Assembly: GCA_963749075.1 (NCBI GenBank)
Contig: CAVVLJ010000023.1
Location: 69,269 to 133,268, forward strand
Origin: an uncultured Pseudomonadota bacterium
GTDB taxonomy: Bacteria; Pseudomonadota; Alphaproteobacteria; JACZXZ01
Length of the DNA stretch: 64,000 bases
Direction: 5' to 3'
Shown: positions 46,912 through 53,991 of the stretch, piece by piece
Position numbering within the stretch: position 1 is the first letter of the stretch
Layout: the number at the start of each line of letters is the position of its first letter
Notes under the pieces: model-generated
The model's input: only the letters and a program-made list of their open reading frames with translations
Told to the model about the DNA's origin: nothing
Databases searched by the model: none
Position numbers and translations under genes: made by a program

Positions 46912-46997
46912 GCGGTCGTGGCGGAATGGTAGACGCGCAGCGTTGAGGGCGCTGTGGGGGAAACCCCGTGGAAGTTCGAGTCTTCTCGACCGCACCA
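46912..46997 (+). tRNA. tRNA-Leu(GAG)
   Basis: GCGGTCG acceptor pairs with CGACCGC-ACCA; D loop GGAATGGTAGAC; anticodon stem CAGCG-TTGAGGG-CGCTG; long variable arm; GTTCGAG T loop. Confidence 0.96.
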
Positions 46998-47134: not shown

Positions 47135-49468
<2,334 letters not shown>

Positions 49469-49658
49469 GGGGACACGGAGAGGACCGGAATTAGCGTCGC
49501 TGCGGATCAATTCCTAGGTTCGTATCCGAGTGGTAACGATCCGTGATCGGTTCTCGGGCCTTTTCCGGAGACGCGGTTATGCGCCTCACCAAACTTAATG
49601 ACTGCTGCTGAGCGGCGCGCAGAAAATCCAGCGCTGTCCCAATTCGGGGCGGAGTGAC

Positions 49659-50186
49659 CTAATTTGAGAGAGGGTGGGCCTGATCTGCCAGCAGCTCCTC
49701 CACGCGAACCGCAGATAGCCGCCAAGCATCAGGGACACGTTCGGTGGTTCCAGCGCCGGCCGCCTTCGGGCCACGCGTGTGATTCTCGTAGAGGATGGTA
49801 TCGCCTCGTCCACCAGAGGCCTCTCGCAATCGGGCTGCTATTTCGCCAGGGGTCGCGAGGTAGATGCGCGGCATCTCATCAGGGGAGACGCCTCGGAATT
49901 GGACCAAGCAGATGACGGTGCGAGGCTTGTGGCGACTAAGCCAAGCATCTATCGCCCCGTGATAGTTGGCTTTTCCTGCCCTCCTCAGGTGGCTTTGAGT
50001 AAGCCCCCAGCTCCCGTCCTGGCTCCCCTTAACCGACACCTTCATCGTTCGGGTGCCGTCGGTAATCATCAGGTCATACTCAGGCTGGTTTGCCCCATAT
50101 TGCACCGAAACATCAAAGCCGAGGCGCGCAAACTGCGCCGCTGCAATTGCCTCGGCGGCGGTGGCGACATGCCAATTTGATTTCAT
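49659..50186 (-). CDS. Putative PD-(D/E)xK restriction-like endonuclease
   Basis: Helix AAEAIAAAQF, PEYDLMI, KVSVKGS (E...D...xxK arrangement). Confidence 0.65.
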   Translation of the reverse strand: MKSNWHVATAAEAIAAAQFARLGFDVSVQYGANQPEYDLMITDGTRTMKVSVKGSQDGSWGLTQSHLRRAGKANYHGAIDAWLSRHKPRTVICLVQFRGVSPDEMPRIYLATPGEIAARLREASGGRGDTILYENHTRGPKAAGAGTTERVPDAWRLSAVRVEELLADQAHPLSN

Positions 50187-50240
50187 TTTGTCGAGTGCTG
50201 GCCGAAATTGATGGGGTCCACATCCGTGCATGGGCATCTC

Positions 50241-52001
50241 TCACCGCCAGTGTAGGTCCGCAAGGAGCCGAGCAATTCCGTCGCTAATTTGCCTAAACCG
50301 TTCTTGCGATCCCCCGAAGAAACCATGCTGTAAGGCGCTCCAATTTGGGCCAAGGCGTTGAGCTTCTGCTATAAACTGAGAGAACGGCGCTTCTGCGCCT
50401 AATCTGTGTTGCTTCCATGCGAATCTGCCTAGTGGTCCCCATACTCGATCAGGCGGGTTACTCGCCCAGATGTTGCCAAAGGTTAAGGCAAGCATAATTT
50501 CAAATTGATCGAACAGCGGTTCATAGCTCTGCCCGAGGAAAAGCTGATCTTCCAGCAACGGCTGAAGTGTTTTAAATAAATGGTCGCTTCTAGGAGTATA
50601 TCGCTGCTCCATTCCCGGCATGCATTTAAAGTATTCGCCGTCATCGAGCTTATCAAAGGTGGCTAGAATGATTGGCTCGCTCTTGGCGCTTCTCCCGAGA
50701 CGTGACGCGTAAATGGAAGTAAGTAGGCACGTCCGGAGGGTATCGTATCGTCCTGCTGAGAGAGCGGAAATGCCAGCCGCGTACATGACGACCGACACGG
50801 GATACCAACCCAGTTGAATCCAAATTGTCAGACCGCTTTGCCCCTTTTCCACCTCAGCAAGCCGGTTAAATATTTTTTCGAGCAGCGTCAGCTGGTTAGG
50901 TTGCGCCCACTTCGCGAACAGGATTGCGGCCTGAGTTACATCGCTGACGGCATCTTCGTAGCGCTTAAGGCGGAGGGGGAATTCCTCGGTGATTTGGCCC
51001 GGCAAGACGGGCGCTTGAACGGGGAAATTGTCCGGGCCCAGCGCCTGGATGGTCTTCCTCAATTGGATTGATAGGAAATCGTCTAGGCGAATTTTGTCAT
51101 CGGGGTTCGCCAGAAGTCGCTTCACAGTCTCAATCGCGGAATCCTCAGATGGAAGCGGAGGCGCTGAATACGCGGGTGCCTCTACGAGGAGATCGCGCTC
51201 CGTTTCTGGTGTGTTCGCAAGGTCCTGAAGCGCCGACGTGTCGAAGACGAAATCACCGTCTCCGTCTATGAACCCGTAATGAGGTGTTTGGTGTGAATGG
51301 ACATCTTTGCTAACCTTTTCATAGACATAAGACATAATCCCGGTTGCCGTTATAATGCCCTCTGGCGCGCCAGCTACGCCTTCCATCGCATCCAATACGC
51401 GCGACGTAAAAATGGAATGACCGGGGCGAGTTCCGTCTCCGTCGGAAACTACTTCGTCAGCTTTGCCCGCGGTTAGCACCTGCCTCGAGTATCGTTGCAG
51501 CATATCCTTTAGAAAGCGCATCCTTCCTGCGGGATTAGCGTTCCGAGTGAACGCAAGGCCGCCGTAACAAGCGTCCATGAAAAAAAGGATGTGCTTGGCA
51601 GGAATTAACTCTGCATTTCTCGTGAGCTCGTCCCATCGAATGAGCGTAGACAGCTCGGCAGTCTTGCCATCAACTGGGACCAAAAAGCCCGCTTCACCGC
51701 GCTGCCCACTGACCGTGTGCCCGTGACCCGCGAAGAAAACCAGAATTCGATCATCGCGAGTTACGACTGATTTGTCTGCGTACCGCAGATACGCCCGCAA
51801 AATGCCATCGCGCGTCGCTTTGCGATCGAGCAGCAGTTCAACATTGTTCTTCGGGAATGCGAATCGGCTGACGATGAGATGTGCGACAGCTTTCGCGTCT
51901 TGACAGGCGTGAATCAAAGGGCTGGCGTGCTTGTATTTATCAATACCGATGATAAGTGCACGGCTGTTTGTATACAGGGGCTGATAGACGACATGCGCCA
52001 T
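50241..52001 (-). CDS. Caspase-family (peptidase C14) protein with large helical C-terminal domain
   Basis: ALIIGIDKY, FFAGHG (His), FFMDACYGG (Cys), HSIFT, QTP; then ~300-aa non-protease region. Confidence 0.9.
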   Translation of the reverse strand: MAHVVYQPLYTNSRALIIGIDKYKHASPLIHACQDAKAVAHLIVSRFAFPKNNVELLLDRKATRDGILRAYLRYADKSVVTRDDRILVFFAGHGHTVSGQRGEAGFLVPVDGKTAELSTLIRWDELTRNAELIPAKHILFFMDACYGGLAFTRNANPAGRMRFLKDMLQRYSRQVLTAGKADEVVSDGDGTRPGHSIFTSRVLDAMEGVAGAPEGIITATGIMSYVYEKVSKDVHSHQTPHYGFIDGDGDFVFDTSALQDLANTPETERDLLVEAPAYSAPPLPSEDSAIETVKRLLANPDDKIRLDDFLSIQLRKTIQALGPDNFPVQAPVLPGQITEEFPLRLKRYEDAVSDVTQAAILFAKWAQPNQLTLLEKIFNRLAEVEKGQSGLTIWIQLGWYPVSVVMYAAGISALSAGRYDTLRTCLLTSIYASRLGRSAKSEPIILATFDKLDDGEYFKCMPGMEQRYTPRSDHLFKTLQPLLEDQLFLGQSYEPLFDQFEIMLALTFGNIWASNPPDRVWGPLGRFAWKQHRLGAEAPFSQFIAEAQRLGPNWSALQHGFFGGSQERFRQISDGIARLLADLHWR

Positions 52002-52187
52002 GGTCCGAAGTATACGGTAGAATTACGCGGAATGCGAGCATCTCACAAGATCGGGCGGGGACATCGCCTGCGCGGTCTATGCGGGTGAACACGCGAGCAT
52101 TTATGGCTTACGCCGCCCGTCTTCGGCCAAGTAGCCCCATCCCCCACTCCTCCCCCGAGGAGAGTTTGCGCCATGAAAGTCAGGCCG

Positions 52188-52685
52188 CTAGGGCGGTGAT
52201 CGTGATTCAGCCGCTGCGCCGGGCGCGGGCGGCAGAGCGATGAGACTCTCCGTCAGTGGCAGAGCGGCGACCAGCAACGCCAGCATGGCGTCCGCCTCGG
52301 CGGCCGTAGGCGATGGGTCGGGGTCGTCGTAGCTTAGGCGGTTTCGCTGCTTATGAGCGTCCATCAACGTCTTATAAGAGCCGGCTATCTTGTTTTTGAG
52401 ATCGGTCACTTCAAGGAGAATTTGAAGCGCCGTCTGTCGGTGCCCTTCCGCTGCATCCGTGCGAACTGAGAAATGAGTCAGCATCGCGATGGCCAGCGAG
52501 TGAATTGCTTCATACGCAATGGTGAATCGGCTGTACGCGGAGATATCGCGGTTTTCCGCGTCCTTCTGCGACGCACGGGCTCGTTCGATGAATCGGCGGA
52601 TTTTATCCTCGTCCCGCTCAGCTTCCTTGAGCAGAGGCCGCGACAGCTTGAGGAGGTTTTCAATCTGTGGCGGCCGCCGGATCAT
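52188..52685 (-). CDS. HEPN-domain toxin-like protein
   Basis: RFTIAYEA, EGHR, KQRNRLSYD (R-x4-Y variant); overlaps the MNT gene. Confidence 0.7.
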   Translation of the reverse strand: MIRRPPQIENLLKLSRPLLKEAERDEDKIRRFIERARASQKDAENRDISAYSRFTIAYEAIHSLAIAMLTHFSVRTDAAEGHRQTALQILLEVTDLKNKIAGSYKTLMDAHKQRNRLSYDDPDPSPTAAEADAMLALLVAALPLTESLIALPPAPGAAAESRSPP

Positions 52686-53238
52686 TGCCGATCACCATCA
52701 ACCTTGGCGTAGATAGAATCCGTTGGACCACTCGGTCCGCAGATTTTCCTTCCCACTCTTGCGGCCCATAGAGGCTCACGTGGATCCTGCGCCCTAGGTC
52801 CTCCTCGGCTTGCTCGAGGGCGGAATTGAGCTCCAACAAACCAATCGGACCGACAACCAAAAGATCGATGTCGCTGTCTGCCCGATCCGTCGCAGTCACA
52901 ATCGATCCGAACAGGAACGCAAAATCGATTCGTTCAGCCAGGGGTTCGAGCGCCGCACGTATTCGTTCCAGCACGCCAAAAGACTTGATACAGATGGCCC
53001 GTAATTCGGCATAGAGCGGAAACCGGGGGTTCGCACGAATGCGAAGTTGATTCCCGACGCGCTGGCCGATTGCAGCCCCGGAAGCAAGCAACCTGCGGAG
53101 GGCATTTTGGTTTACTCCACGACCGGCGCCCCCGATCTTGATGAGCTCATTATAACTGTAGCTCCGCTCCGGATGGAGCAGCAGAGCGGCGAGCAGACGC
53201 TGCTGGCGTGGTGCAATCAGGAAATCTGCAAGGCTCAT
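52660..53238 (-). CDS. wHTH-fused minimal nucleotidyltransferase (MNT) antitoxin
   Basis: N-terminal HTH; AFLFGS-x10-DID motif (GSIVTATDRADSDIDLLVV). Confidence 0.88.
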   Translation of the reverse strand: MSLADFLIAPRQQRLLAALLLHPERSYSYNELIKIGGAGRGVNQNALRRLLASGAAIGQRVGNQLRIRANPRFPLYAELRAICIKSFGVLERIRAALEPLAERIDFAFLFGSIVTATDRADSDIDLLVVGPIGLLELNSALEQAEEDLGRRIHVSLYGPQEWEGKSADRVVQRILSTPRLMVIGNDPAAATD

Positions 53239-53249
53239 ACGTTAACTCC

Positions 53250-53333
53250 GGACCATTTCTAGGTCTAATTGGACCGTAAAGCGCCCTCACGCGAGAGACC
53301 ATGCTTAGGTCTTATAGGACCAATATACGGTCT
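53250..53333. promoter_or_regulatory. Array of RGACC-N7-GGTCT palindromic operators upstream of MNT
   Basis: Full dyads at 53250-53266, 53296-53312 and 53317-53333; half-degenerate copy at 53271-53287. Confidence 0.75.
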
Positions 53334-53526
53334 GAATCGTCAAATTCAAATGACTTTGAAACACCCATCGCGCGTCTCTGGTTGACCATGTGTCCGGTTG
53401 AACAAGTCCTGCTACCCCTCCGATACACCCGCCCCGCCTTGTTCCGACCGCAGTGGAGGGCTAGATATAGGACCTGACGCCTGCGAGGCCGGGGATCGGC
53501 GGGAGCCATGACGCGAACTCCTCAAC

Positions 53527-53991
53527 GTGACGCTCAACGGCCGGCCGAGGACCGACGCGGTGGCGGACAACCTGCTGCTGCTCGATTACGTGCGCGAGGT
53601 CGTCGGCCTCACGGGCACCAAGACGGGGTGCGACGGCGGCGAGTGCGGCGCCTGCACGGTGCTGCTCGACGATGTGCCGGCGCTCTCGTGTCTCACGCTC
53701 GCGGCCACTGTCGAGGGCCGCCGCCTCGACACGGTCGAGGGGTTGGGCACGGGCGGCCGGCTCTCCGCGGTGCAACGCGGCTTTCACGAGAAGCTCGGCG
53801 CCCAGTGCGGCTATTGCACGCCGGGCCTCATCATGGCGTCGGAGGGGCTCCTGCGCCGCAACCCGCGGCCGAGCGAGCCTGAGATCCGCGCCGGCCTCGG
53901 CAGCAACATCTGCCGCTGCACCGGCTATGTGAAGATCATCGAGGCGGTGAAGCACGCGGCAGCACTCCGCGCGCGCGGCGAGGCTCCTTGA
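53527..53991 (+). CDS. hcrC: 4-hydroxybenzoyl-CoA reductase gamma ([2Fe-2S]) subunit
   Basis: [35 protein letters not shown]; upstream ATG at 53508 is out of frame by one base. Confidence 0.85.

What the first reader, a model, noticed from the sequence alone, without database searches (positions are those of the whole stretch)
49659..52001. Metacaspase + PD-(D/E)xK nuclease gene pair in an AT-richer island: candidate undescribed anti-phage/cell-death system
Seen: a 586-aa protein with an intact C14 dyad (AGHG, DAC) and a ~300-aa helical C-terminal region. A co-oriented 175-aa restriction-like nuclease follows 54 bp later. Both lie downstream of an MNT-HEPN pair in an island between maeB and hcrC. 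Known: bacterial caspase-like proteases act in defence, e.g. gasdermin activation and CRISPR/Thoeris-linked proteases. Inference: the C-terminal region (..RIRLDDF..RYTPRSDHL..FDQFE..WGPLGRFAW) looks, from memory only, like a module also seen behind SIR2/TIR effectors. That would suggest a shared sensor with swappable effectors, with the nuclease as substrate or co-effector. I recognise no named system with this two-gene layout.
Basis: partly seen in the sequence, partly recalled or inferred. Interest (0 to 1): 0.78.

Follow-up and report, generated by a model that had tools for sequence, protein, structure and literature searches.

The report
Stand-alone caspase defence candidate gene
A horizontally acquired bacterial gene joins a caspase-type protease to an unstudied helical domain that elsewhere carries other cell-killing enzymes, so it is probably a one-gene anti-phage candidate, and the nuclease gene beside it looks like a chance neighbour.

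Summary
The sequence features are real. A 586-aa protein (50241-52001, minus strand) has an intact C14 His/Cys dyad and a ~300-aa all-helical C-terminal domain (CTD). It lies in a low-GC island with a small PD-(D/E)xK-like gene and a nucleotidyltransferase pair.

The proposed caspase+nuclease gene pair is not supported. None of 80 related loci from many phyla encodes the nuclease, and none has any conserved neighbour.

The CTD matches PADLOC candidate PDC-S65 (E 2e-42), whose full-length form is SIR2+CTD. The same CTD also follows TIR, TIR-like, protein kinase and ParA-like domains, and occurs alone.

The CTD folds with high confidence (pLDDT 95). It has no Pfam family and no structural relative in PDB or BFVD.

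Best reading: a single-gene, caspase-effector variant of an untested defence-candidate family, with the CTD as its regulatory or sensing module. A named caspase-nuclease system, Canu, exists, but this locus lacks its defining features.

Verdict: new variant of a known candidate kind, moderate interest.

The parts
50241..52001 (-). Caspase-CTD gene, 586 aa plus stop. This is the autonomous unit described here.
   Evidence: ORF. At least 1768 full-length relatives. 80 of 80 fetched loci encode it.
51150..52001 (-). N-terminal C14 caspase-type protease domain and linker (residues 1-284). The catalytic His93 codon is at 51723-51725 and the Cys145 codon at 51567-51569.
   Evidence: Pfam Peptidase_C14 E 1.4e-15. 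PADLOC 'caspase' 1.6e-18. His93 and Cys145 are invariant in 20 of 20 sequences. The best PDB fold matches are MALT1 paracaspase and metacaspases (E down to 2.9e-9).
50244..51149 (-). C-terminal all-helical domain (CTD, residues 285-586), the PDC-S65-type module. It is proposed to be the regulatory or sensing part.
   Evidence: PADLOC PDC-S65: PDLC05061 2.1e-42 and PDLC05060 3.5e-33, matching the C-terminal profile halves only. 1855 representatives at E<=1e-3. Model pLDDT 95.1, pTM 0.93. No Pfam family. No fold match in PDB or BFVD.
49659..50237 (-). Small PD-(D/E)xK-like gene, 175 aa from the ATG at 50186 or 192 aa from the ATG at 50237. It is a neighbour in this genome and not a conserved partner.
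   Evidence: The family has at least 2629 relatives at 65-85% identity. It is absent from 80 of 80 caspase-CTD loci.
52188..53238 (-). A separate upstream two-gene module whose ORFs overlap by 26 nt. It comprises an MNT-type nucleotidyltransferase (52660-53238) and a PDC-M05B-type partner (52188-52685).
   Evidence: PADLOC PDC-M05A 2.5e-52 and PDC-M05B 6.8e-17. Pfam NTP_transf_2 and Polbeta. It is absent from 80 of 80 caspase-CTD loci.
49469..53526 (.). Low-GC island holding the four genes, between the malic enzyme gene and the hcrC-like gene.
   Evidence: GC is 0.50-0.61 against about 0.70 in the flanks. GC3 is 0.56-0.68 against 0.91-0.94. No flanking direct repeat, integrase or adjacent tRNA was found.

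Best explanation
The 586-aa protein is an autonomous single-gene module. It is a caspase-effector variant of the family that PADLOC catalogues as the candidate PDC-S65 (SIR2+CTD).

The C-terminal all-helical domain is inferred to be the regulatory or sensing part that holds the N-terminal effector inactive until an infection-linked cue appears. Activation, most plausibly through a change in self-association, would then release the His93/Cys145 protease. The protease would cut host or phage proteins and stop growth or kill the infected cell (abortive infection).

The gene arrived by horizontal transfer, in an island that also holds an independent PDC-M05-type pair and an unrelated small PD-(D/E)xK-like gene.

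**Shown:** the domain architecture, the intact dyad, autonomy from its neighbours, exchange of effectors on one CTD family, and foreign base composition.

**Inferred:** the defence function, the CTD as sensor, activation by oligomerisation, and the substrates.
For: **Architecture.** The dyad is invariant in 20 of 20 relatives, and both domains are found in relatives end to end.

**Autonomy.** The nuclease, MNT and partner genes are each found in 0 of 80 related loci. The largest shared neighbour cluster covers 6 of 80 loci, at varying positions and strands. The 75 nearest downstream ORFs are heterogeneous.

**Module exchange.**
- PDC-S65 profiles match the window protein over the CTD only, but match SIR2 plasmid proteins over their full length.
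- Of the 56 longer CTD representatives, 33 carry Peptidase_C14, 3 Pkinase, 1 TIR_2 and 1 a ParA-like domain; 18 have no Pfam hit. Of those 18, 11 are N-truncated caspase forms, 2 are TIR-like and 1 is ParA-like.
- With the CTD as query, 10 plasmid records match: 5 are annotated SIR2, 2 TIR and 1 hypothetical protein; 2 lie under no annotated gene, and one of these, in Pseudoalteromonas, also matches the whole caspase-CTD protein over 99% of its length.
- On the CTD tree the 8 labels need 40 changes, where the minimum possible is 7. The window's CTD sits in a supported set of 5 rows with a ParA-like form and a CTD-only form.

**Defence association.**
- PDC systems were defined by embedding in BREX, DISARM or type I RM systems (Payne et al. 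preprint, section 10).
- The window gene sits beside a PDC-M05-type pair. One PDC-M05 representative protected E. coli B against at least one phage (PMC12881386, passages).
- 15 of 74 nearest upstream neighbours hit PADLOC models at E<=1e-8. Eight are strong: Gabija GajB, a type II restriction enzyme, methyltransferases, DRT reverse transcriptases, a GmrSD-like protein and DUF4238-Pers.

**Horizontal spread.** Relatives occur in many phyla at 41-55% identity. GC3 is foreign to this genome.
Against: **No experiment exists.** PDC-S65 is an untested candidate, and no searched paper names it.

**The neighbourhood signal is modest and uncontrolled.**
- Only 2 of 75 downstream neighbours hit PADLOC, and both hits are generic.
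- Many neighbours are housekeeping genes.
- No matched control set was scanned.
- The two methyltransferase loci (L013, L014) are near-duplicates.

**The sensor role is unproven.**
- The CTD has a strongly conserved core with invariant W, Y, D, E and G. This suits a conserved ligand, partner or catalytic site at least as well as a variable phage-protein sensor.
- No fold relative gives a functional hint.

**CTD-only proteins.** They make up 93 of 149 top representatives. If they are real genes, the CTD may have a function of its own.

**Local linkage to the nuclease.** In this genome the nuclease ORF is tightly linked: an ATG lies 3 nt after the caspase stop, and no terminator-like site lies between the genes. 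Local co-expression is therefore likely.
Confidence: 0.55

Rival explanations
1. A two-gene caspase-nuclease system of the Canu type. On infection the caspase would cleave and activate, or cooperate with, the downstream PD-(D/E)xK-like nuclease.
For: - The genes are co-oriented and 54 nt apart, or 3 nt apart using the first ATG. No terminator-like site lies between them.
- There is a precedent: Canu, in which a caspase activates a downstream pro-nuclease (PMC12799240).
- Both genes have foreign GC3.
Against: - 0 of 80 caspase-CTD loci encode the nuclease.
- 0 of 75 nearest downstream ORFs have a nuclease Pfam domain.
- Profile comparison with two small downstream ORFs gives probabilities of 1.1% and 0.06%.
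- The nuclease family is large (at least 2629 relatives) and far more conserved (65-85% identity) than the caspase family (48-59%).
- Apart from the window's own contig, no contig length is shared between the two top-120 lists. This is a crude check.
- The nuclease alignment is almost gapless and shows no gating insertion.
- The nuclease is not MBL-fold.
Confidence: 0.05
2. The protein is not an anti-phage system. The caspase-CTD would be a mobile addiction or conflict module, or a stress or programmed-cell-death protease, that spreads horizontally for reasons other than phage defence.
For: - Most nearest neighbours are housekeeping or unknown genes.
- There is no experimental evidence for PDC-S65.
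- The gene is absent from the phage collection and rare on plasmids: 1 full-length plasmid hit.
- 2 of 80 loci carry disrupted copies.
Against: - The CTD's other partners are SIR2, TIR and Ser/Thr kinases that match PD-T4-6 and mad6 defence models. These are effector types typical of defence systems.
- PDC-S65 was picked out because it is embedded in BREX, DISARM or type I RM systems.
- 8 strong defence neighbours occur among the 74 upstream ORFs.
- The window gene lies next to a PDC-M05-type pair.
Confidence: 0.2
3. The CTD is itself the effector or an enzyme, or binds a conserved small molecule. The fused N-terminal domains would be regulators or second activities rather than the output.
For: - Polar residues are invariant or nearly invariant across relatives about 30% identical: D498, E501, R526, K530, S472 and Y348 in full-length numbering.
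- CTD-only proteins of about 300 aa are the commonest form among the top representatives: 93 of 149, of which 82 start with Met. Among the 79 CTD-only proteins kept for the tree, starts cluster near the domain boundary.
- The nearest Atlas cluster is a 293-aa hypothetical protein family with 1260 members (score 0.89, a lead only).
Against: - There is no match to any enzyme fold or family.
- All the identified fused domains are themselves catalytic output domains in known systems.
- CTD-only entries sit as sisters to fused forms of every kind on the tree. Split genes or gene-calling artefacts would also give that pattern.
Confidence: 0.12
4. All four island genes (MNT, its partner, caspase-CTD and nuclease) form one cooperating four-gene system.
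For: The four genes are on the same strand, closely spaced and all of foreign GC3.
Against: - The MNT and its partner are absent from 80 of 80 caspase-CTD loci.
- The pair matches a separate two-gene candidate, PDC-M05.
- A 186-nt gap separates the pair from the caspase gene.
Confidence: 0.03

Closest known systems
PADLOC phage defence candidate PDC-S65 (single gene, SIR2 + C-terminal helical domain). One of 145 untested candidates from Payne et al., bioRxiv 10.1101/2024.01.29.577857.
   Same: The C-terminal domain family is the same (E 2.1e-42 and 3.5e-33 to the two profiles). Both are single genes of about 585 aa with the effector at the N-terminus.
   Different: The N-terminal SIR2 is replaced by a C14 caspase domain; profile positions 1 to about 300 are not matched. 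Its SIR2+CTD make-up is therefore inferred from full-length matches of plasmid SIR2 proteins.
Canu (CanABC) caspase-nuclease defence system, Science 2025, PMC12799240 (abstract and passages read).
   Same: A caspase-family gene is followed by a nuclease gene, and the protease is expected to drive cell death or growth arrest.
   Different: - Canu's nuclease is an MBL-fold gated pro-nuclease. Here it is a small PD-(D/E)xK-like protein with no insertions.
- CanA keeps a MALT1-like Ig-like domain. Here the C-terminus is an all-helical domain.
- Canu genes co-occur and co-evolve. Here co-occurrence is 0 of 80.
DSR2 (defence-associated sirtuin 2). Abstracts of PMC10981675, PMC11290490 and PMC11850899 were seen in the listing.
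   Same: It works by the same logic: one polypeptide with an N-terminal cell-killing effector and a C-terminal helical domain that senses a phage protein.
   Different: The effector is different (SIR2). There is no PADLOC DSR hit, and no PDB chain matches the CTD model at E<=1e-3. This is therefore an analogy and not homology.
Type IV Thoeris caspase-like effector. Known here only from the abstract of PMC13243611 in the listing and from passages of PMC13069673.
   Same: It is a bacterial caspase-like protease used as an immune effector.
   Different: Thoeris IV needs a separate TIR gene that makes a nucleotide signal. No TIR was found among the four island genes, and only 1 weak TIR hit occurs among the 149 nearest neighbours of relatives. 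Whether the CTD binds a nucleotide is unknown.
EACC1-associated caspases (NCBIfam NF047832).
   Same: They are the best NCBIfam match for the caspase domain (E 4.5e-19).
   Different: The score of 68.8 bits is far below the curated cutoff of 140, so the protein is not a member.

Membership tests
Peptidase C14 (caspase / metacaspase / paracaspase superfamily) | Family profile match above the curated cutoff | tested here: met
   PF00656, 58.1 bits against a cutoff of 21.4, residues 14-231.
Peptidase C14 (caspase / metacaspase / paracaspase superfamily) | Catalytic His-Cys dyad present and conserved | tested here: met
   His93 (AGHGH) and Cys145 (DACYGG) are invariant in 20 of 20 sequences.
Peptidase C14 (caspase / metacaspase / paracaspase superfamily) | Caspase-hemoglobinase fold | tested here: met
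   The full-length model (pLDDT 79.4) matches MALT1 and metacaspase structures. E values reach 2.9e-9, and the TM-score normalised to the target reaches 0.72.
PADLOC PDC-S65 | C-terminal ~290-aa domain of the PDC-S65 profiles | tested here: met
   PDLC05061 2.1e-42 (residues 284-582 to profile positions 302-588 of 592). PDLC05060 3.5e-33 (residues 289-585 to positions 215-503 of 503).
PADLOC PDC-S65 | N-terminal SIR2 domain (first ~300 profile positions) | tested here: not met
   The N-terminal profile positions are not matched, and the domain is Peptidase_C14. Full-length matches come from SIR2_2 proteins.
PADLOC PDC-S65 | Single-gene system with no obligatory partner | tested here: met
   No conserved neighbour was found in 80 loci.
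PADLOC PDC-S65 | Anti-phage activity | not testable with these tools
   It is an untested candidate, and no searched paper names it.
Canu (CanABC) | MBL-fold gated pro-nuclease encoded downstream of the caspase | tested here: not met
   The downstream protein gives only weak PDDEXK_5 and YraN-like matches, and its alignment is gapless.
Canu (CanABC) | Caspase with a MALT1-like Ig-like C-terminal domain | tested here: not met
   The C-terminal 300 aa are all helical.
Canu (CanABC) | Conserved co-occurrence of protease and nuclease | tested here: not met
   0 of 80 loci.
Type IV Thoeris | Adjacent TIR signal-producing gene | tested here: not met
   No TIR hit among the four island genes. One weak TIR hit among 149 nearest neighbours of relatives.
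PD-(D/E)xK nucleases (the downstream gene) | Family profile match and the D...(D/E)xK motif | tested here: inconclusive
   PDDEXK_5 scores 19.9 bits, below the 26.1 cutoff. E12, D38 and K53 are present, but position 51 is an invariant Ser. The YraN-like PDB match has E 0.045.
MNT-HEPN pair / PDC-M05 (the upstream genes) | Nucleotidyltransferase plus a HEPN partner with an Rx4-6H motif | tested here: inconclusive
   The MNT is confirmed and both PDC-M05 profiles are matched. The partner has no Pfam HEPN hit and no PDB match. Its only Rx4-6H string is RTDAAEGH at residue 75.

The most novel reading that the evidence does not exclude
The ~300-aa helical CTD is a new, widespread infection-sensing or signal-binding domain with no known fold relative. 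It can switch on at least five unrelated output domains: caspase, SIR2, TIR or TIR-like, Ser/Thr kinase and ParA-like NTPase. The caspase form would then be a minimal one-protein bacterial 'sensor plus caspase' death switch that needs no NTPase, no second messenger gene and no partner.
Probability: 0.35. Interest if true: 0.75.

Novelty: new variant of a known kind. Interest (0 to 1): 0.5.

Why it matters
If the reading holds, a very common but unstudied domain would be a portable control module for cell-killing enzymes. It has 1855 cluster representatives at E<=1e-3, and the caspase form alone has at least 1768 relatives.

The caspase form would add a one-gene route to caspase-driven immunity in bacteria, alongside the CRISPR-, gasdermin-, Thoeris- and Canu-linked proteases. 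Because it is a single 586-aa gene with a clear catalytic dyad and sharply conserved CTD motifs, the hypothesis can be tested directly by expression, point mutants and phage escape mutants.

The finding also shows that adjacency alone can mislead. The nuclease next door is not part of the system.

Tried and rejected
**Caspase+nuclease pairing.** Rejected on 0 of 80 co-occurrence.

**Four-gene system.** Rejected on 0 of 80 loci for the MNT and its partner.

**Canu membership.** Rejected.

**CTD self-association.** Complex prediction with two copies of the CTD gave no verdict (score 0.00 against a mark of 0.42). This is not evidence for or against self-association.

**Searches for a relative of the CTD that found nothing usable:**
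- Pfam on 53 CTD sequences: no family recurs.
- PDB sequence profile: nothing meaningful.
- PDB and BFVD fold searches: 0 hits at E<=1e-3.
- Atlas, named clusters without PF00656: no usable hit.
- Atlas, all clusters: only hypothetical-protein clusters at 0.89, which is below the 0.9 lead threshold.

**Nuclease searches.** No match in plasmids or phages. One PHROG of unknown function matched.

**CTD in phage genomes.** No match.

**Island borders.** No convincing direct repeats, and no tRNA adjacent to the island; the only tRNA lies 2.5 kb away beyond maeB. Promoter and terminator scans were at chance level. No Rfam match.

**Literature.**
- 'PDC-S65': 0 papers.
- 'Peptidase_C14' + SIR2 + TIR + anti-phage: 0 papers.
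- A broader five-term search found 46 papers, of which 25 were listed. I read term-matched passages of two, and neither describes this architecture.

**Not available or not checked:**
- DefenseFinder was not available.
- The contexts of the CTD-only genes and of the nuclease family therefore stayed unchecked.
Full report
**What is there.** On the minus strand, four ORFs lie between a malic enzyme gene (47135-49468, +) and an hcrC-like 2Fe-2S subunit gene (53527-53991, +):
- an MNT-type nucleotidyltransferase (52660-53238);
- a 165-aa partner that overlaps it by 26 nt (52188-52685);
- a 586-aa protein (50241-52001);
- a small ORF (49659-50237).

The flanking genes were confirmed against solved structures: NADP malic enzyme at E 0, and 4-hydroxybenzoyl-CoA reductase gamma subunit at 7.9e-66. 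The four genes form a compositional island. Window GC falls from about 0.70 to 0.50-0.61. GC3 is 0.56-0.68 in the island genes and 0.91-0.94 in the neighbours. I found no flanking repeats, no integrase, no adjacent tRNA and no Rfam element.

**The 586-aa protein.** Residues 14-231 match Pfam Peptidase_C14 above the cutoff. His93 and Cys145 are invariant in 20 of 20 aligned relatives. The full-length model (pLDDT 79.4) matches MALT1 paracaspase and metacaspase structures. The protein is one of a large, length-conserved family. At least 1768 proteins reach E<=1e-3, and the 120 listed are 48-59% identical, nearly all over the whole length. One scan of species-representative genomes found 171 relatives. 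The best 80, which I fetched, come from Alphaproteobacteria, Acidobacteriota, Planctomycetota, Chloroflexota, Patescibacteria, Paenibacillus, Cyanobacteria, Nitrospira and others, at 41-55% identity. Two of the 80 copies are disrupted: one by an insertion of about 2.8 kb, one by a frame break.

**Is the nuclease a partner? No.**
- tblastn with the nuclease, the MNT and its partner against the 80 loci (6 kb of flank on each side where the contig allowed) gave 0 hits each at E<=1e-3. The caspase query hit 80 of 80.
- I clustered all 2085 ORFs of at least 70 aa lying within 4 kb of the caspase gene. No family was shared by more than 6 of 80 loci, and that family lay at varying positions and strands.
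- Pfam on the nearest downstream ORF of 75 loci found no nuclease family. 36 ORFs had no hit, and the other 39 ranged from gyrase A and EPSP synthase to a few recombinases.
- Profile comparison of the nuclease family with two small co-oriented downstream ORFs, from the closest relative (L001) and from L064, gave probabilities of 1.1% and 0.06%.
- The nuclease belongs to a separate, much more conserved family: at least 2629 relatives, 65-85% identical, about 170-180 aa. Its alignment is almost gapless, and its motif reads E12, D38, S51-x-K53.
- The nuclease assignment is itself weak: PDDEXK_5 is below the cutoff, and the YraN-like PDB match has E 0.045.
- In this genome the two genes are probably co-transcribed. 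An ATG lies 3 nt after the caspase stop, the homology-supported start lies 54 nt after it, and no terminator-like site lies between them. That linkage is local and not conserved.

**The C-terminal domain is the interesting part.** PADLOC's two PDC-S65 profiles match residues 284-585, but only with their C-terminal ~290 positions. A phmmer search of residues 285-586 against 1.84 billion cluster representatives found 1855 proteins at E<=1e-3 and 216 at E<=1e-30. I looked at 149 of the top 150:
- 93 are shorter than 340 aa, that is, CTD only; 82 of these start with Met.
- 56 are longer.

Of the 56 longer proteins, Pfam finds Peptidase_C14 in 33, Pkinase in 3, TIR_2 in 1 and a ParA/CbiA-type P-loop in 1, and nothing in 18. 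Inspection and PADLOC resolve those 18 as follows:
- 11 are N-terminally truncated caspase forms;
- 2 are TIR-like;
- 1 is a ParA-like fragment;
- 1 has an unknown 207-aa N-terminus;
- 3 have short extensions.

Against plasmids, the CTD alone hits 10 records. Five are annotated as SIR2 family protein, 2 as TIR and 1 as a hypothetical protein. The other 2 lie under no annotated gene: an unannotated caspase-CTD in Pseudoalteromonas and an apparent remnant beside a transposase. The Cupriavidus and Massilia SIR2 proteins match PDC-S65 profiles over their full length (5.6e-207 and 6.4e-182) and carry Pfam SIR2_2. PDC-S65 is therefore SIR2+CTD, and the window protein is the same frame with a caspase in place of SIR2.

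On a FastTree of 136 CTDs, the N-terminal labels are thoroughly interleaved. They need 40 changes where 7 is the minimum, and well-supported branches alone force at least 11 changes for the caspase label. The window's CTD sits in a supported group of five rows with a ParA-like form and a CTD-only form. This tree has only local support values and several long branches, so I take from it only the qualitative message that effectors have been exchanged repeatedly.

**What the CTD is.** Modelled alone with 53 sequences, it is a compact all-helical domain: pLDDT 95.1, pTM 0.93, with one short beta hairpin.
- It has no Pfam family; 0 families recur among 53 members.
- It has no PDB relative by sequence profile.
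- It has no structural match at E<=1e-3 in PDB or BFVD; the best TM-scores are about 0.2.
- Across relatives about 30% identical it keeps invariant W, Y, D, E and G, and nearly invariant K, R, S and F positions. These include the FDxFE and GRFxWK motifs.
- Within the caspase-CTD family, mean pairwise column identity is 0.66 for the caspase core, 0.46 for the CTD and 0.26 for the linker. Inside the CTD, variable stretches (residues 421-450: 0.29) lie next to conserved ones (481-510: 0.67).

**Defence context.**
- PDC systems are 145 untested candidates chosen because homologues sit embedded in BREX, DISARM or type I RM loci (Payne et al. preprint, passages and section 10).
- No searched paper names PDC-S65.
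- One PDC-M05 representative, the candidate type matched by the upstream pair here, protected E. coli B against at least one phage. PDC-S65 was not among the eight candidates tested (PMC12881386, passages).
- I scanned the 149 nearest neighbours of the 80 relatives with PADLOC at E<=1e-8. 15 of 74 upstream ORFs hit. Eight hit strongly: GajB 2.7e-206, a GmrSD-like Orf5/HEC-06 1.5e-260, a type II restriction enzyme, two methyltransferases from near-duplicate loci, two DRT-type reverse transcriptases and DUF4238-Pers. Only 2 of 75 downstream ORFs hit, and both matches were generic.
- I ran no matched control, so this is suggestive and no more.

**How it most likely works.** All the identified partners of this CTD are output enzymes of known immune systems. 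From established knowledge of these families, caspases, TIR and SIR2 NADases and kinases are commonly switched on by induced proximity or assembly. I therefore read the CTD as the control module. It would hold the effector off, respond to an infection cue, and release the His93/Cys145 protease to cleave cellular or phage proteins, giving abortive infection. The cue, the substrates and the role of oligomerisation are all inferred.

The conserved polar core leaves room for other roles: a conserved ligand, a host partner that is guarded, or a catalytic activity of the CTD itself. The abundance of CTD-only proteins is unexplained. Among the 79 CTD-only proteins kept for the tree, starts cluster within a few residues of the domain boundary, which argues for real genes. 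Yet they sit as sisters to fused forms of every type. Split systems would give that pattern, and so would gene-calling artefacts. Their genomic contexts could not be fetched.

**Comparison with what is known.** The closest family is PDC-S65, with the same CTD and a different effector. It has a MALT1-like caspase with an Ig-like domain, CanB, and an MBL-fold pro-nuclease that the caspase activates (PMC12799240). Each of its defining features tested here is not met. DSR2 is a functional analogy: a SIR2 effector plus a helical C-terminal sensor of a phage tail tube protein (abstracts in the listing). There is no detectable homology to it. Type IV Thoeris uses a caspase-like effector but needs a TIR partner gene, which is absent here. 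The EACC1-associated caspase model scores far below its cutoff.

**Verdict.**
- The caspase+nuclease system is not supported.
- The idea of one sensor with swappable effectors is supported, and it places the gene as a caspase variant of an already catalogued but untested candidate family, built on a domain of unknown fold.
- Novelty: new variant of a known kind.
- Interest: moderate, 0.5.

Noticed in passing
window 52188-53238 (-): The upstream pair matches PADLOC PDC-M05A (2.5e-52) and PDC-M05B (6.8e-17), and the two ORFs overlap by 26 nt. The second protein has no Pfam HEPN hit and no PDB match, and its only Rx4-6H string is RTDAAEGH at residue 75, so the label 'HEPN' is unverified. One PDC-M05 representative was reported to protect E. 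coli B against at least one phage (PMC12881386).
   Followed up: partly
window 49659-50186 (-); proteins P0390-P0404: The small nuclease-like domain also occurs as the C-terminal part of longer proteins. Their N-terminal domains are DUF6946 (8 of 15 listed), Nmad3, a nucleotide-modification-associated domain (2 of 15), or a weak Ogg-HhH-like region. This hints at a nuclease directed at modified or damaged DNA. The canonical acidic residue of the (D/E)xK motif is an invariant Ser.
   Followed up: partly
proteins P0244-P0389: CTD-only proteins of about 300 aa are the commonest form among the top representatives (93 of 149). Their starts cluster at the domain boundary, and they are interleaved with fused forms on the tree. 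Whether they are split two-gene systems or gene-calling artefacts is open.
   Followed up: partly
loci L001-L080, nearest neighbours: PADLOC hits are asymmetric: 15 of 74 nearest upstream ORFs against 2 of 75 nearest downstream ORFs. Several strong upstream hits are co-oriented with the caspase gene (GajB in L032, a restriction enzyme in L029, a GmrSD-like protein in L016). The caspase-CTD gene may often sit at the 3' end of another system.
   Followed up: no
L062:6001-10516 and L074:6001-7709: Two of the 80 related genes are disrupted. In L062 an insertion of about 2.8 kb separates residues 7-528 from residues 523-586. In L074 there is a frame break near residue 504-519.
   Followed up: no
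L086:3264-6600 (Nostoc plasmid NZ_CP040304.1): A distant CTD-like hypothetical protein (367 aa) lies between a GIY-YIG nuclease gene and a macro-domain gene, all co-oriented. It may be a split or variant system with an ADP-ribose-related partner.
   Followed up: no
L085:5001-5780 (Marinibacterium plasmid CP031591.1): An unannotated CTD match lies directly beside IS transposase genes. It looks like a remnant truncated by the insertion.
   Followed up: no
L081:8133-8948 and L081:10858-11934; L082:10172-11094: The SIR2-CTD (PDC-S65) genes on the Cupriavidus and Massilia plasmids lie near RES-family NAD+ phosphorylase toxin genes. In Cupriavidus the gene also sits next to a weak Abi_2-like protein.
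   Followed up: no
window 46912-46997 (+): tRNA-Leu(GAG) lies just upstream of the malic enzyme gene, about 2.5 kb from the island edge. It is not adjacent to the island.
   Followed up: no
window 51400-51730 (-), residues 91-210 of the caspase-CTD protein: The stretch after the catalytic Cys (MRFLKDMLQRYSRQVLTAGKADE...) is the most conserved part of the whole protein, with pairwise column identity of 0.71-0.83. The model has low confidence at residues 152-160. It may be a family-specific regulatory or substrate loop.
   Followed up: no
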